A DNA stretch of 64,000 nt. Origin: Malacoraja senta (lineage: Eukaryota). The notes beneath the pieces are model-generated. The model saw only the letters and a list, made by a program, of their open reading frames with translations, ran no database searches and was not told the DNA's origin. Position numbers and translations under genes: made by a program. Position 1 is the first letter of the stretch. Each line of letters begins with the position of its first letter. The stretch lies in assembly GCA_038087875.1 (NCBI GenBank), contig CM075990.1, forward strand, positions 4,156,001 through 4,220,000, given 5' to 3'. Positions 12,446-62,492 of this stretch are shown here, piece by piece.

Positions 12446-13782
12446 TTTGTCGGGTACGTAGAACAATCCTTGTTCAATGCGTACCAGGGCCCCATCCCCG
12501 ACCTCTACCTCCGCTACATCGATGATTGTTTTGGTGCCACATCCTGCACCCACACACAGCTGACTTCATCCGCTTCACCACCAACTTCCATCCGGCACTC
12601 AAATACACCGGGACCATTTCCGACACTTCCCTACCATTCCTTGACCTCACTATCTCCATCGCAGGTGATAGACTCCTTACCGACATCCACTACAAACCTA
12701 CCGACTCCCATGGCTATCTGGACTACACTTCTTCCCACCCTGCTTCCTGTAAGGACTCCATCCCCCACTCCCAATTCCTCCGTCTACGCTGCATCTGCTC
12801 CCAGGATGAGGCGTTCCACACCAGGGCATCTGAAATGTCCTCATTCTTCAGGGAACGGGGGTTCCCCTCCTCCACCATAGATGAGGCTCGCACCAGGGTC
12901 TCTGCCATACCCCGCAACACTGCTCTCTCTCCCCATCCCCCCACTCACAAGGGCAGAGTCCCCCTAGTCCTCACCTTTCACCCCACCAGCCGTCACATAC
13001 AACAAGTGATCCTCCGTCAGTTTCGCCACCTCCAACGTGACCCCACCACTCGCCACATCTTCCCATCTCCCCCCATGTCTGCCTTCTGCAAAGACCGCTC
13101 CCTCCGTAACTCCCTTGTCAATTCTTCCCTTCCCTCCCATACCACCCCCTCCCCTGGTACTTTCCCTTGCAACCGCAAGAGATGCAACACTTGTCCCTTC
13201 ACCTCCCCCCTCTACTCCATTCAAGGACCCAAGCAGTCGTTCCAGGTGCGACAGAGGTTCACCTGCATCTCCTCCAACCTCATCTATTGCATTCGCTGCT
13301 CTAGTTGCCAGCTGATCTACATCGGTGAGACCAAGCGGAGGCTTGGCGATCGTTTCGCCGAACACCTCCGGTCGGTCCGCAATAACCAACCTGAACTCCC
13401 GGTGGCTCAGCACTTCAACTCCCCCTCCCATTCCGTATCTGACCTCTCTGTCCTGGGTCTCCTCCATGGCCACAGTGAGCAACACCGTAAATTGGAGGAA
13501 ATGCACCTCATATTCCGCTTGGGCAGTCTACATCCTGGGGGCTTGAACATTGAATTCTCCCAATTCTGCTAGCCCTTGCTGTCCCCTCCCCTTCATCAGC
13601 CATCTGGTTGTCTCCTCCCCTCCCCCAGCCCTCGTGCTCCTCCTCCGCCTTTTTCCTTTTTTCCTTTCTTCTCCCCACCCCCTATCAGTCTGAAGAAGGG
13701 TTTCGGCCCGAAACGTTGCCTATTTCCTTCGCTCCATAGATGCTGCTGCACCCGCTGAGTTTCTCCAGCATTCTTGTGTACC
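12446..13782 (+). mobile_element. 5'-truncated Penelope-like retroelement (RT C-terminus + GIY-YIG endonuclease; Neptune-like Cys linker)
   Basis: YLRYIDD RT motif (ORF 12470) frameshifts at ~12560 into ORF ..13572, which has LPFLDL, YKPTD, CNRKRCNTC, NLIYCIRC..CQLIYIGET.R.LGDRFAEH and GLN. 14-bp duplication TTTAATTTGGCATC at 12432-12445 and 13783-13796. Confidence 0.93.
13690..13717 (+). ncRNA. Minimal hammerhead ribozyme-like motif in the Penelope 3' terminal repeat
   Basis: CTGAAGA-A-GGG(tttcgg)CCC-GAAAC-GTT: catalytic core boxes, 3-bp stem II and palindromic stem III. Penelope-like elements are known to carry minimal hammerheads. Confidence 0.65.
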
Positions 13783-27224: not shown

Positions 27225-28699
27225 CAAGTTAATAAGGTGCGTGTTTACTTTTTTTGTATACAAGAATTTTTATAAGAACAAATTTTATTCCCAATCAGAG
27301 TTCTTTTGGAAGTGATTTGTGAATTCCGCAAAGGTGAATTTCTGTTACGCAAACTACTGTAATACAGGAGCTGCCTTTTTTATGAACTGAAAAATACAAT
27401 CAGAACGTGCTTCATCCAACCTCGCTTCATGCTTTCATTTGTGTATTAACATCCATCACCATGAGTGTAAACAGGTCATAATTTTTTTTTTTAATAATTT
27501 TTTTTTTTTTATTTGTCATTTGGACAAATTTGTCATTTGGACCCCGTTGAGGTCCAAACGAAATATCGTTTCTGCAGCCATACATTACAAAACGAAGAAG
27601 ACCCGAGACACAACATAATTTACACATACATTTATTTCAATACCGGCTAATTATACAATTTAGAATGTCAAAACCGCTCCCAAACTTAAGCTAAGTTGAA
27701 GGCAGCAAATATTTAATTCTGATTTCAAGCTTAACCTATTTAAAACTGAAATTCATTCTAACATTACAACTAAGGATACAGTGCTGGGGAAACTCAGTGG
27801 ATCAGGCAGCATGCCTGGAGAACGTGGACAGGTGATGTTTCAGATGGGACCCTTCAGACTTCAACATTAGAACCAGGCTCAGAAACTGCATGTTACAGGA
27901 AACATTTCATGTTTCCAATCTGGTTTGATACACACACTAAATATCTGCCTGCGTAGCTATAATGATCAGCCTGGTAAAGAAACAGCAACTCACTCTGAAG
28001 CCAAGGGGTGACCTGATGCAGGTATACAATATTTTGAGGAGGAGCGACATGGTAAACAGTGGGAGCCTTTATCACATTGTGGGGGTGTCTGGAACAAGGG
28101 TGAATTCAAGGTGAGATGGAGAAAGTTCAGTAGGGATCAAGGGATTAGAGGAGGAATTTTTCCTCCTGTGATTGGAATCTGCCAACACCACCTGAAGAGG
28201 AGGTGGCGGAAGCAGGGACACACGCAACATTTAAGAAACATCTAAACAACACTTAAGGAAAGACTCAAAGTGCTGGAGTAACTCAGCGGATCAGGCAGCA
28301 TCCCTGGAGAACATGGATAGTGACCTTTCGGGTTGGGACCCATAAGGGATTCTGCCTGACCCGCTGAATGACTCCAGTATTTTGCGTCTTTTCTTGGTAA
28401 ACTGGTGTCTGCAGTTCCTTGTTTCTATTTCTAAACAACACTGAAATTGTTGAGGCAAGGAAGGCTATGGACCGAATGCAAGTAAATGGGATTAGTATAG
28501 ATATGTACGATGGTCGATACGGGCTAATGAGAGCTCACGGGCCTGCTTCTGCACTGTACAACTCTACATGATTCACTGAGTTCTTCAATTAAATCACTAC
28601 TATTGCAAGGAAAGACAGAGTGTTGGAGTAATTCAGCAGGTCAGGCAGCATCTCTGGAGAACACGGATTGGTGACGTTTCGGGTTGGGACCCTTCTTCA

Positions 28700-29205
28700 T
28701 GCCCACAATCTCTTTGAAGAACTTCCCTCTGAAGACGAGCCAGAATCAGGTCGGCTACGAATATTTTAGCACCAGGTTCCCCATGAACATACGGTGTGCT
28801 AAACGGGTGAGAGGCGGCGCACATATGTCCGTATTCCAGGCCAGTAGCAATCGGCACTTCACGCCGACCGCCGCCGCGTGGACGGCGGCCGGTTATCCCA
28901 GGCCAACCAGCGAGCCGCGGCGCTAGGGTATCGTTACGTTTAGACGACTGTCAAAGCCGCCACAGCCGGACATAAAAACAGCTTTTTCCCCCCACGAGCA
29001 ATACCTCTACTCAATAACCAAAAGTCTGTAGCCTCCTTTTGCTCTGGTATTTTATTTCATTCACATGTTTAAACTATAATGTTTTATTATTAATGTTTAA
29101 TGTTTTATTCTTAATTGTTTACTGTATATCGTGTCATTACTTGCAAGCGGAGCACCAAGGCAAATTGGTTGTATGTGTACATACTTAGCCAATAAACTTA
29201 TTCAT
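28700..29205 (+). mobile_element. Rex1/Babar LINE 3' fragment interrupted by a ~200-nt insert
   Basis: HNLFEELPS(G)RR before 28738 and TVKAATAGHKNSFFP after 28947. 3' UTR with AATAAA and (ATTC)n. Confidence 0.7.
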
Positions 29206-29439
29206 TCATGTTCCCACAGATGCTCCCTGACCCAGAGTTACCCCAGCACTGTCCTTTTTTGTAATCCAGCATCTGCAGTTCCTTGTTAGTACAATAGTAC
29301 TATTGCGAGCCTTGCGAAGGGCCTATCTATCAATGGTTTTCACATTTCACAACATTGGCATTCACCATTACTTTGGTTCTTCATCGCAGAGTTTGGAAAA
29401 GCAAGGAAAAACCAGCAAACGATCACCTTTTTCACTCAC

Positions 29440-29604
29440 ATTTTCGATGAACTGGATGTTTGAGAGCATGAGAAAATCGTTGAAGACATTATGGAGACGG
29501 GAGTCTGTGGCCTTTGTGTTCTGGATCAAGCCGTCAAGCTGCTTCTCGATCTCGTGTGTGCGTGAGAGCATCCGCTGAGAGAAATCTTGCAGAAATAGGA
29601 GCAG
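29440..29604 (-). CDS. WASHC2: WASHC2 coding exon [55 protein letters not shown]
   Basis: Highly conserved FAM21 head motif [19 protein letters not shown]. cag/GTGAGT splice sites, 165 nt, phase 0-0. Confidence 0.96.
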
Positions 29605-32586
29605 CTGATGGCAAAAAATAATTATATCCAACTGATGAAGTGCAAAAGCCGGGCACAAACTGCTGCTTGTTACACCCTAGAAAGATCTGTCATTTCTCCA
29701 TTCAAGAGTAAAATACTTTCCACACTCTACCCCACTATGCCTCTGCTCGAAAGGTGAACGTCTTTATGGTTTCCAACAGCAAAAAACAACCTCCGCTGGA
29801 TGTTGCAGAAATCTGCAGGTGGAGAATATCTTCCACCATTCCCATCAATTTCAAATCTTTAAGTATTTTTTTTTATTTTTTATTTTTTATTTTTATTTAT
29901 TAGAAGTACATTACATTACAAGTATTTCTGATGCTCTAATTAATCAAATGCTGCCTTGTCAGGGAAAGCAACTCGCACTTTAACTGCAATTTAACTAGCT
30001 CTTTGGTTGTGTAAGGGAAGAACTGATCTTGGCAGAGATTGGGCGGCACAGTGGCACAGCAGGTGGAGTCACTCTCTCACAGCGTCAGGGACCAGAGTTC
30101 CATCCTGACCTCAGGTGCTGTTTGTGTGGAGTTTGCATGCTCTTCCGGTGACCAAGTGGGTTTCTCCCGGGTATTTTGATTTCCTCCAACATACCAAAGA
30201 CATTGTGAAGAATATCAGGGGGAAAAGAGGGAATTCATGTGGGATTAGTGTAAATGGGTGGTTGAGACTCAGTGGGCTGAAGGGCCTGTTTCCATCCTGT
30301 CTTTCTATGACTCTATACCATTAGACTGTAATAGTCAGTCCTTCATGCGTTCTACTTGATAGAAAGTCTGGCAACTGCACACTCAAGCAATAAAATCTTG
30401 TGGACATGCTGATGGAATGGAGAGCTGGAACAAATATATCCTGCTCTCTGTGTACCTTCCATGGTTGTAGATGATGAAACTAATGGAGATTTCTACCACG
30501 AGTTGCTTAATTGCATCTTATAAAGGGTTTGGACTTTGATCTAAAGATGACAGCCCCATTCATTGCAAATTGTTTTAGTGTAGTTTGGAGATACCGCATG
30601 GAAACAGGGCCTTCAGTTCACCTTGTCCACACTGACCAGCGATCCCCAGATCAGACTAGTTGTGTGTTATTCCACTTTCCCATCCACTACCAACACACTC
30701 AGGGACATTTACTGAGCCCAATTAACCTACACAGGTCTTTGGATGTGGGAGAACCCAAGTCCATCGGTACCCGACGGCAGGATCAAACTTGGGTCTCTGG
30801 CGATGCTAGGCAGCAGCTCTACCAGCTGAACTACCGTGTTCTTGAAGGGAATTCTGCAGGAATGGCATGGCGAAGATTGCCTTCACTGCGTTCAGATGTA
30901 ATGACAACTTGTGCATACAGTTCCAGAGATTCACACAGAGAGTGGTGAATCTCTGGAACTCTCTGCCACAGAGGGTAGTTGAGGCCAGTTCATTGGCTAT
31001 ATTTAAGAGGGAGTTAGATGTGGCCCTTGTGGCTAAGGGGATCAGGGGGTATGGAGAGAAGGCAGGTACGGGATACTGAGTTGGATGATCAGCCATGATC
31101 ATATTGAATGGCGGTGCAGGCTCGAAGGGCCGAATGGCTTACTCCTGCACCTATTTTCTATATATCTATGTATCTAGCTGTACTCTTATTGCATGTTTCC
31201 ATACACTGAAGCAGTAGATGTCTGGGCTACTTTGGAGCTAACTACAGGGTGTGGAAATGCAAGCAAGTGTAGGCAAATGGGTTGTTACAACAATACTGCA
31301 CTTATGGAAACATCAATGACACAATTACGTGTGTTACCAGAGGTCATGGGTTTATGGAAGCAGTAAGAGGTTTGGAGTGGATACAAGGAAGAACATTTTT
31401 CTACCTAGAGTGTGAGTGGAGTTTGGAGCGCACAGCCTGAGAAGGTGTTGGTGGCCAAGGCTCTGACTACGTTTAAGTATCGAGAAAAAGGACACAATGT
31501 ACTGGAGTACCCCAGGACCAGGCAGCATCTCCGAAGAACATGGATAGGTTACGTTTTAGGCCGGAATCCTTCTAAGTACCTAGAGATGCACTTGAATTGC
31601 CAAAGGACGGAGGGGACAGACCACGTGATGGTATATGGGGTTGGTATAGGTAGGTGGTACTAGGTCAGGATAAACATGGTGGTTTGAAGGGCCTGTACCC
31701 GAGCTGTATCGTGATATAAAACTAAGTTTCACTCCAGGCTCCATATAAAACCTCCAAGTAACTCCATGATACTATTGTATCGTTTAAGACACATTTAGAC
31801 AGATACGTGGATAGGACAGGTTTAAAGGGATACGGGTCAAAAGCAGGCAGGTGAGACTAATGTAGATGGGACATTTTGGGCAGTGTGGGCATGTTGGGCC
31901 AAAGGGCCTGTTTCCATGTTGTATGACTCTCTAATATACAATTAGGCCTTGCATCTGCAGGTCATTAGTCCATGTAAATGGATAACACGACCAATAATAA
32001 TCATCATGTATTTAGCTGAAGCTCTAGATGTCTAGAGAAGCATTTGAATCACCTGTACATTGTAGGTGGGATTACAATGGAAAGGTACCCACACGTTGGC
32101 ATGGAGATGATGGCCCAAATGGTCTGGTTCCAGGTTATATGACTTGGTGGAACGGCACGGTGGTTCAGCGGTAGAGTTGCTGCCTTACAGCCGCATAGAT
32201 CTAGGTCGATCCTGGCTACGGGTGTTGCCTGCATGGAGTTTGTACATTCTCCCAGTGACAGCGTGGGCATTTCCTGGGTGCTCCGGTTTCCTCCCACACT
32301 CCAAAGACTTGAAGGTTTGTAGGTTAATTGACTTAGGTAAAGATTGTAAATTGTCCCTAATGTCGGCGTGGACACGGTGGGCCGAAGGGCCTGTTTCCAC
32401 GCTGTAACTCTAAAAACCAAAAAAACTAGACTCTATGACTCATCTCATGTCATCTGAGAGACAAGCATGTCCAGCCACATGAGATGGAAGGCACATGTAC
32501 ACTTGAAGCATGATACAGTACAGGCAAAGCTGTCAAACAGAGATCATGCCCAGGCTGCTGCTGTCCAACGTAATGGCTCTACTTAC

Positions 32587-46761: not shown

Positions 46762-47605
46762 AAAGTAAGCATGCAGGTACAGCAGGCAATGAAGAAAGCG
46801 AATGGCGGTTTGGCCTTCATAACAAGAGGAGTTGAGTATAGGAGCAAAGAGGTCCTTCTGTAGTTGTACAGGGCCCTAGTGAGACCACACCTGGAGTATT
46901 GTGTGCAGTACTCCTGCACCTATTTTCTTCCTCCTGCACCTATTTTCTATGTTTCTATAGGCACGGGTTATTGATTGTTGACGATCAGCCATGATCACAA
47001 TGAATGGCGGTACTGGCTCGAAGGGCCGAATGGCCTCCTCCTATACCTATTTTCTGTGTTTCTATGTTTCTAAGTTTTGGTCTCCAACTTTGAGGCAGGA
47101 CATTCTTGCTATTCAGGAGTGCAGCGTAGGTTCACGAGGTTAATTCCTGGGATGGCGGGACTGTCATATGCTGAGAGAATGGAGCGGCTGGGCTTGTATA
47201 CTCTGGAATTTAGAAGGATGAGAGGCGATCTTATTGAAACATGTAAGTTATTAAGGGTTTAGACACGCTAGAGGCAGGAAACATGTTCCCGATGTTGGGG
47301 TAATCCAGAACCAGGGGCCACAGTTTAAGAATAAGGGGCAAGCCATTTAGAACGGAGATACTTTTTCACACAGAGAGTTGTGAGTCTGTGGAATTCTCTG
47401 CCTCAGAGGGCGGTGGAGGCCGGTTCTCTGGATGCTTTCAAGAGAGAGTTAGATCGAGCTCTTAAAGATAGTGGAGTCAAGGGATATGGGGAGAAGGCAG
47501 GAACGGGGTACTGATTGGGGATGATCAGCCATGATCACATTGAATGGCGGTGCTGGCTCGAAGGGCCGAATGGCCTACTCCTGCACCTATTGTCTATTGT
47601 CTATC
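46762..47605 (+). mobile_element. CR1-clade LINE 3' fragment with a nested CR1 tail
   Basis: LYRALVRPHLEYCVQ ... GVQRRFTRLIPGM ... 3' UTR. Confidence 0.88.
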
Positions 47606-47689
47606 TATACCTTGCCTACCCAACAGGAGTCAACATGAGTTCATGTGCTCCATTGTATCATTTGCTCATCGCCATCTGCGGTTGTGTTA

Positions 47690-50729: not shown

Positions 50730-51125
50730 TTCAAGGATCAAAAGTGTTTAATTGTCAAATGGACTGATAATGTCATTCTTGCAGCAGCATAACAGATACA
50801 AATAAATAGTATATGGTAAACAAAAATTAATCAAACTAAAAATCCCAATACTTGTGCAAAACACTCAACGTCCTTCGAGCAACCAAAGACAGTCCATAGT
50901 TCCTAGTTGAACATAGTGTTGTGCAGTGTTCAACAGTCTCTTGGTTGTTTGGAAGAAGCTGTTCTTGAACTTGATGGTCATGGTTTTCAGACTCCTGTAG
51001 CTTCTTCCCGATGCCAGGAGCGAAATGAGAGCGTGTCCACGATGGGGTGGGTCTCTGATGAAGCTGGCTGCCTTTTTGAGGCAACACCTCTTATAGATCC
51101 CTTCCAAGGTGGGGAGGTTGGTACA
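50730..51125 (-). mobile_element. Rex1/Babar LINE 3' fragment
   Basis: IY..RC.KKA.S.I.DP.H.GHAL.SLL.SGR.YRS.....FKNSFF motif. Confidence 0.8.
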
Positions 51126-61854: not shown

Positions 61855-62492
61855 GCGTTTCATTTTAACAAGAGGAATCGAATATAGGCGCAAAGAGGTC
61901 CTTCTGCAGTTGTACAGAGCTCTAGTGAGACCACACCTGGAGTATTGTGTGCAGTTTTGCTCCCCTAATTTGAGGAAGGACATTCTTGCTATTGAGGGTG
62001 TGCAGCGTAGGTTTACAAGATTAATTCCCGGGATGGCGGGACTGTTGTATGCTGAGAGAATGGAGCAGCTGGGCTTGTACACTCTGGAGTTTAGAAGGAT
62101 GAGAGGGAATCTCATTGAAACATATAAGATTGTTAAGGGCTTGGACACGCTAGAGGCAGGAAACATGTTCCCGATGTTGGGGGAGTCCAGAACCAGGGGC
62201 CACAGTTTAAGAATAAGGAGTAAGCCATTTAGAACGGAGACGAGGAAACACTTTTTCTCACAGAGTGGTGAGTCTGTGGAATTCTCAGCCTCAGAGGGCG
62301 GTGGAGGCAGGTTCTCTGGATGCTTTCAAGAGAGAGCTAGATAGGGCTCTTAAAAATAGCGGAGTCTGGGGATTTGGGGAGAAGGCAGGAACGGGGTACT
62401 GATTGGGGATGATCAGCCATGATCACAGTGAATGGCGGTGCTGGCTCGAAGGGTCAAATGGCCTACTCCTGCACCTATTGTCTATTGTCTAT
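61855..62492 (+). mobile_element. CR1-clade LINE 3' fragment in LDB3 intron
   Basis: ORF 61829-62344: LYRALVRPHLEYCVQF.SP...VQRRFTRLIPGM...TRGHSLRI. Confidence 0.92.

What the first reader, a model, noticed from the sequence alone, without database searches (positions are those of the whole stretch)
28739..28941. Foreign-looking, CpG-rich, highly structured ~200-nt insert inside a Rex1 fragment
Seen: a Rex1 ORF tail (HNLFEELPS-GRR | TVKAATAGHKNSFFP) is split by 203 nt, flanked by AGACGA at 28733-28738 and 28942-28947. Comparison with the Rex1 copy at 50865-51107 implies only about 2 codons should lie between the halves. The insert has ~23 CpGs (counted by eye) in a CpG-poor intron and resembles nothing else in the window. 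It can form a nested multi-branch fold. GGTCGGC (28749-55)/GCCGACC (28863-69) closes a domain that holds TTTAGCAC (28765-72)/GTGCTAAA (28796-803) with inner GTTC/GAAC, and a GTGA (28807-10)/TCAC (28859-62) arm. Three hairpins follow: GCCGCCG (28870-76)/CGGCGGC (28883-89), GGTT/AACC and AGCG/CGCT. There are no TIRs, poly(A) tail or Pol III boxes. Inference: a recently inserted copy of an unrecognised structured RNA or mini mobile element. An assembly or read artefact is the main alternative.
Basis: partly seen in the sequence, partly recalled or inferred. Interest (0 to 1): 0.78.

Follow-up and report, generated by a model that had tools for sequence, protein, structure and literature searches.

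The report
28S rRNA scrap inside Rex1 relic
The odd insert is a backwards 205-base piece of the animal's own 28S ribosomal RNA gene, likely pasted into a dead retrotransposon by reverse transcription of rRNA, so it is an ordinary rRNA pseudogene fragment and not a new RNA or mobile element.

Summary
The insert is real as described: 203 nt, 23 CpG, AGACGA on both sides, splitting a Rex1-type LINE tail. It is not foreign. It is the antisense strand of the 3' domain of the host's own 28S rRNA (about 283 to 73 nt before the mature 3' end), 204/210 identical to tandem rDNA units that carry 18S, 5.8S and 28S. CpG richness and stems are inherited from rRNA; neither strand folds better than shuffles (z -0.32, +0.03). 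Six differences are private to this copy against 29 array copies, which argues against a fresh assembly chimera, but no read or contig bridging a junction was seen. Best mechanism (inferred, 0.7): LINE reverse transcriptase copied a broken 28S rRNA, primed by 2 matching bases, giving a tailless rRNA retropseudogene. Other dispersed 28S pieces in this genome stop exactly at the mature 3' end with A-rich tails. Whether AGACGA is a true target-site duplication is unresolved, because 7 Rex1 bases are also missing. Main rival: break repair copied from rDNA (0.2). Known kind; low interest.

The parts
28737..28943 (-). Fragment of host 28S rRNA 3' domain (variable expansion region and flanking helices), sense on the minus strand; the match can be extended to 28946 with one mismatch
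   Evidence: 204/210 identity to rDNA units over 28737-28946; the matching stretch lies inside Rfam RF02543 on the minus strand
28733..28738 (+). Left AGACGA; its last 2 nt (GA) also match 28S (microhomology at the 3' end of the RNA)
28942..28947 (+). Right AGACGA; possible target-site duplication; first 2 nt (AG) match 28S exactly and 4 of the first 5 match
28701..28738 (+). 5' half of a 5'-truncated Rex1-type LINE tail (start approximate)
   Evidence: aligns to 27 of 29 sister copies upstream of the site
28948..29209 (+). 3' half of the Rex1-type tail: end of ORF, 3' UTR and (TTCA)n tail; 7 nt present in sisters are missing at the junction
   Evidence: 89-92% to sister copies; sister L093 has RVT_1 and PF09004 upstream; the name Rex1 for this architecture is recalled
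28615..28699 (.). Left arm of a very high-copy palindromic repeat (MITE-like, inferred) that hosts the Rex1 piece; TTCATG at 28696-28701 recurs at 29205-29210
   Evidence: depth and opposite-strand joints; sequence
29211..29286 (.). Right arm of the same palindromic repeat

Best explanation
The insert is an antisense fragment of the host's own 28S rRNA gene sequence, likely written into an old Rex1 copy by a LINE reverse transcriptase that used a broken 28S rRNA as template (a tailless, 5'-truncated rRNA retropseudogene). Shown: donor identity, orientation, both boundaries, 2-nt microhomology at each junction, the 6-nt repeat, the nesting (palindromic repeat > Rex1 tail > 28S piece). Inferred steps: the plus strand was nicked or broken after AGACGA; its 3' GA paired with UC in the rRNA 73-75 nt before the mature end; about 205 nt were reverse transcribed; the cDNA end (AG) annealed to the other target end and the second strand was filled in. 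If the second nick lay 6 nt away, AGACGA is a target-site duplication and the 7-nt loss between two GACT repeats is a separate deletion; otherwise the event removed 5 target bases and the repeat is partly chance. The piece has no promoter or tail and is predicted to be inert.
For: Donor: 34 of 40 scored matches lie on unplaced contigs at 95-98%, most in tandem at 15-20 kb spacing; one unit fetched holds 18S, 5.8S and 28S. RNA route in this genome: 27 of 31 fetched dispersed loci hold a 28S piece beyond the probe; 2 (L067, L070) stop exactly at the mature 3' end and run into A/T-rich or A-rich tails, and none of the 4 that come within 20 nt of that end continues into the spacer. Three other pieces end 77, 79 and 83 nt before the mature end, near this one's 73, around the linker before the last helix. 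L1-type ORF1 is present (109 matches among 150 scored). Both repeat copies carry the minority letter A (2 of 27 sisters) where the 28S has G; a 6-nt repeat across both junctions arose in 0.9% of simulated insertions without duplication. The same 7-nt deletion exists in 2 other Rex1 copies. Precedent: ten 5'-truncated tailless 28S retropseudogenes in human, with 2-18 nt target complementarity (PMC5322556, passages).
Against: The 7-nt deletion is rare: 2 copies against 2996 with the full site (the patterns differ and the first undercounts), so the duplication model needs an event about as unlikely as the chance repeat. The target is not the T/A-rich L1 site given in PMC5322556. The 3' end lies 2-4 nt inside a helix of the Rfam structure, not in a loop. 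Most other dispersed 28S pieces show no clean duplication flush with their ends, even at 94-96% identity. Nothing in this one fragment (no tail, no mature end) distinguishes RNA from DNA as template. The enzyme is not identified.
Confidence: 0.7

Rival explanations
1. Break repair by templated insertion from DNA: a double-strand break in the Rex1 relic was patched by copying 205-210 nt from an rDNA unit or extrachromosomal rDNA, with 1-2 nt microhomologies and loss of 5 target bases; the AGACGA repeat is chance plus one later G>A change.
For: The 28S match runs to 28946 with one mismatch, after which Rex1 resumes with no further deletion needed. No tail, no mature RNA end, non-L1-like target. 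DNA-level rDNA pieces that cross into spacer exist on unplaced contigs (L073, L074).
Against: Needs a chance 6-nt repeat (0.9%). Dispersed 28S pieces on large contigs look RNA-derived as a class.
Confidence: 0.2
2. One-step chimera: the 28S piece was captured by template switching while this Rex1 copy was being reverse transcribed.
For: Insert and Rex1 divergence do not differ significantly (p 0.23). 28S/LINE-1 chimeras are described in mammals (bioRxiv 10.1101/2025.02.02.635956, passages).
Against: The piece is antisense and has sense Rex1 on both sides, which needs two switches with a strand change; described chimeras carry the RNA at the 5' end and 83% are sense.
Confidence: 0.04
3. Assembly or library chimera with abundant rDNA.
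For: rDNA is high-copy; the locus flank is single-copy in the assembly, so there is no second haplotype to compare.
Against: Six substitutions are absent from all 29 array copies compared, and three of them are absent from the rDNA contigs of 3 public runs. The two Rex1 halves are collinear around a 205-nt piece.
Confidence: 0.03
4. One reading: a copy of an unknown structured RNA, or a member of a mini mobile family (for example a 28S-headed SINE or a Rex1-28S composite).
For: Perfect stems are modestly enriched; SINE28 shows that 28S 3' pieces can be called SINEs (PMC4994717).
Against: Donor identified as 28S; no fold signal; 0 of 29 Rex1 sisters carry the piece; no other scored match shares both ends.
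Confidence: 0.03

Closest known systems
Tailless retropseudogenes, 5'-truncated 28S rRNA type (Noll et al. 2015, PMC5322556)
   Same: Internal rRNA fragment, no A-tail, short complementarity between RNA 3' end and target, short flanking direct repeat.
SINE28 (Longo et al. 2015, PMC4994717)
   Same: Derived from the last 500 nt of 28S; median size 171 bp; can sit inside another element.
   Different: No A-rich tail, stops 73 nt short of the mature end, single copy of its kind. L067 and L070 elsewhere in this genome resemble SINE28 anatomy better.
28S rRNA/LINE-1 chimeras (bioRxiv 10.1101/2025.02.02.635956)
   Same: 28S piece of 50-482 nt joined to a LINE.
   Different: Here antisense and in the middle of a Rex1-type relic; likely a later, separate insertion.
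Templated insertions at double-strand breaks / orphon rDNA (recalled)
   Same: Short distant template, 1-2 nt microhomology, small target loss.
   Different: A 6-nt direct repeat is not expected.

Membership tests
28S rRNA-derived sequence (RF02543) | High identity to the host's 28S inside a full 18S-5.8S-28S unit | tested here: met
   204/210; Rfam on units
Tailless retropseudogene | 3'-truncated cellular RNA without oligo(A) tail | tested here: met
   ends 73 nt before the mature end, followed directly by target DNA
Tailless retropseudogene | Target complementary to the last 2-18 nt of the RNA | tested here: met
   2 nt, the minimum, so weak
Tailless retropseudogene | Target-site duplication | tested here: inconclusive
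   6-nt repeat present; needs a 7-nt deletion seen in 2 of about 3000 sisters, against 0.9% chance repeat
Tailless retropseudogene | Truncation in a single-stranded region | tested here: inconclusive
   2-4 nt into the last helix, next to the linker
Tailless retropseudogene | L1-type T/A-rich target consensus | tested here: not met
   target is GAAGACGA/CT against TT/WAAAAWW in PMC5322556; so 'works like', not strict L1-type membership
Tailless retropseudogene | Mobilised by a relaxed L1 | not testable with these tools
   L1-type ORF1 exists in the genome; the enzyme of this event cannot be assigned
SINE28 | A-rich or simple-repeat 3' tail | tested here: not met
SINE28 | Pol III transcription of the copy | not tested
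   no RNA runs examined
Novel structured ncRNA | Fold better than shuffles | tested here: not met
   z -0.32 and +0.03
Mini mobile element family | Several dispersed copies with shared ends | tested here: not met
   none among 40 scored matches of 48 candidates and 31 fetched dispersed loci
Rex1/Babar LINE (host element) | RT followed by the PF09004 domain and a short tandem-repeat tail | tested here: met
   sister L093: RVT_1 and PF09004; (TTCA)n tails; link of this architecture to the name Rex1 is recalled, a paper search for it found nothing

The most novel reading that the evidence does not exclude
This genome holds a population of tailless and tailed 28S retrocopies made by a relaxed LINE outside mammals and lizards, and their ends are a fossil map of rRNA: 3' ends pile up at the linker before the last helix (73-83 nt from the end) and 5' ends just downstream of the uridine that is N3-methylated in human 28S (m3U4530), where reverse transcriptase would stall.
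Probability: 0.25. Interest if true: 0.35.

Novelty: new member of a known kind. Interest (0 to 1): 0.12.

Why it matters
Little as it stands: rRNA pseudogene fragments are common (109 28S fragments in the human reference, PMC4994717 section 9). Practical value: a variable 28S segment escapes an Rfam scan when isolated (one search found nothing real) and looks like an unknown structured RNA; a search of the own genome settles it. The side lead, that retrocopy ends may record rRNA structure and base modification in a lineage where tailless retropseudogenes were not reported, would be a modest, testable addition to retroposon biology.

Tried and rejected
Rfam on the insert region alone: one chance hit (P18, E 5.9); the family appeared only after fetching the genomic donors. 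Folding both strands: no signal. tRNA scan: 0 genes. Read support: 23 runs listed, none holding half of the words; 4 of them laid twice. All are contigs; no listed piece bridges either insert junction or the empty site of this locus, and 28685-28695 had no cover in any run. Run X15 matches the unique flanks (209/209, 83/83, 98/99); X1 and X5 have pieces reaching over the Rex1 tail junction, but with under 31 letters on one side, so dating against relatives failed. Search for a second haplotype of the flank: only the window itself. Modification-stop idea: probe counts either side of the site did not drop (9 against 13 matches on large contigs); in the first set 7 of 8 informative loci began 452-471 nt from the end, but 0 of 4 new independent loci from a second probe did (434, 478, 496, 614); overall 7 of 15 independent events. 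The control probe near 1000 nt was not clean because it lies near the R2-type site. Host gene: 20 of 122 ORFs scanned, only a sub-threshold GIY-YIG hit. Earlier findings: nothing by sequence, place or words. Paper searches with no or no useful result. Supplements were not opened; the tables of PMC5322556 and PMC4994717 may list 28S end positions that bear on the side lead.

Full report
Observation. The structural claim does not survive controls: minimum free energy is -70.9 and -74.1 kcal/mol for the two strands, z -0.32 and +0.03 against 200 dinucleotide shuffles. Perfect stems of 7 bp or more are somewhat enriched (5 against 1.1; 9 of 1000 shuffles), as fits a GC-rich rRNA segment. An Rfam scan of the region alone gave only a chance hit.

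Donor. A search of the own genome scored 40 of 48 candidates: the window itself, 34 matches at 95-98% on unplaced contigs, most in tandem at 15.4-19.9 kb spacing, and 5 older matches on large contigs. Rfam places the matching stretch inside eukaryotic LSU rRNA in 5 of 5 array loci scanned, and a whole unit carries 18S, 5.8S and 28S. The window matches 204 of 210 nt over 28737-28946, antisense, 283 to 73 nt before the mature 28S end, across the variable region that the Rfam model leaves unpaired. This explains the CpG content, the stems and the Rfam miss. Six differences (28754, 28784, 28825, 28832, 28834, 28944) are absent from all 29 array copies compared; only one is a CpG decay.

Target. 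The flanks are two halves of one LINE tail with thousands of relatives (3465 candidates, 40 scored at 89-92%); a sister carries RVT_1 and PF09004, the architecture I recall as Rex1/Babar. None of 29 sisters has the 28S piece; 27 cover the site and have about 7 more bases than the window's right side. The Rex1 piece itself sits in the centre of a very abundant palindromic repeat, with TTCATG on both sides. Order of events (inferred): palindromic repeat, then Rex1, then 28S. The insert is 5/205 from its donor and the Rex1 tail 13/259 from the majority of its sisters; the difference is not significant.

Junctions. GA at 28737-38 and AG at 28942-43 belong to both 28S and target. Two readings fit. 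(a) True 6-nt duplication plus a separate 7-nt deletion between two GACT repeats: both hexamers carry A where 25 of 27 sisters and the 28S have G, and 2 other Rex1 copies show the same deletion, but 2996 copies match the full site. (b) No duplication: 28S runs to 28946, five target bases are lost, and one G>A change completes a chance repeat; a 6-nt repeat across both junctions appeared in 0.9% of simulated insertions. These are about equally unlikely, so the point stays open.

RNA or DNA template. The fragment alone cannot tell. The class can be sampled: I fetched 31 dispersed loci found with the insert or with four 22-nt probes; 27 hold a 28S piece beyond the probe and 4 do not; three pairs are duplicates. 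L067 and L070 end exactly at the mature 3' end and run into A/T-rich or A-rich tails; none of the 4 pieces that come within 20 nt of the end enters the spacer. Three end at 77, 79 and 83 nt, beside this one's 73, around the linker before the last helix. Clean duplications are rare among them. Two loci on unplaced contigs (L073, L074) do cross into spacer and are DNA-level remnants. L1-type ORF1 is abundant (109 of 150 scored), and Rex1- and R2-type reverse transcriptases are present. I therefore favour reverse transcription of broken 28S rRNA (0.7) over DNA-templated repair (0.2).

Artefact. The private substitutions and collinear flanks make an artefact unlikely (0.03).

Known systems. PMC5322556 (passages read) describes tailless retropseudogenes with 2-18 nt target complementarity, including ten 5'-truncated 28S copies in human, and found them among vertebrates only in therians and the anole. 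PMC4994717 (passages and the first part of section 9) describes SINE28, tailed copies of the last 500 nt of 28S, and 109 LSU fragments in human. bioRxiv 10.1101/2025.02.02.635956 (passages) reports 28S/LINE-1 chimeras, 83% sense. The insert works like a tailless 28S retropseudogene; strict L1-type membership fails on the target consensus and is open on the duplication; SINE28 membership fails on the tail.

Side lead. 5' ends of dispersed pieces cluster 452-471 nt from the end, just downstream of GGGUUU at 465-463. I recall this uridine as the counterpart of human m3U4530 (its existence near the peptidyl transferase centre is in bioRxiv 10.1101/2023.11.23.568509, one passage; the positional mapping is from memory). 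The cluster held for 7 of 8 informative loci of one probe but 0 of 4 new events of a second probe; 7 of 15 overall. One paper search for such a link found nothing. It is a lead only.

Verdict. Ordinary: a 28S rRNA pseudogene fragment nested in a Rex1 relic. New member of a known kind; interest 0.12.

Noticed in passing
L031:2282-5210 (G000:C3656, about 29280-32210), minus strand: The 28S gene of this unit is interrupted right after ...TAACTATGACTCTCTT by a 2.9-kb A-tailed insertion with a long RVT_1 frame, the site I recall as the R2 target. Unit spacings of 15.4-19.9 kb on C3656 suggest many units with insertions of differing length.
   Followed up: partly
L067:1829-2278 and L070 (G000:C1:21.81 Mb; C3:49.91 Mb): Dispersed 28S 3' pieces that stop exactly at the mature end and continue with A/T-rich or A-rich runs: SINE28-like anatomy.
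   Followed up: partly
L067, L068, L070, L113, L114, L115, L117: 5' ends of dispersed 28S pieces at 452-471 nt from the mature end, just downstream of the uridine recalled as human m3U4530; not reproduced by 4 new events from a second probe.
   Followed up: partly
L138, L140, L141: Dispersed 28S pieces that begin at or near the R2-type site; L138 also holds R2-type sequence outside the arrays.
   Followed up: no
window 61880-62492, 47073-47609, 30934-31173 and others: A common repeat of the window also occurs in the rDNA spacer of contig C465 (76-95% identity).
   Followed up: no
window 12526-13572 +: 348-codon open frame with a weak, sub-threshold GIY-YIG match (E 0.0007); possibly a Penelope-type relic (inference).
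   Followed up: no
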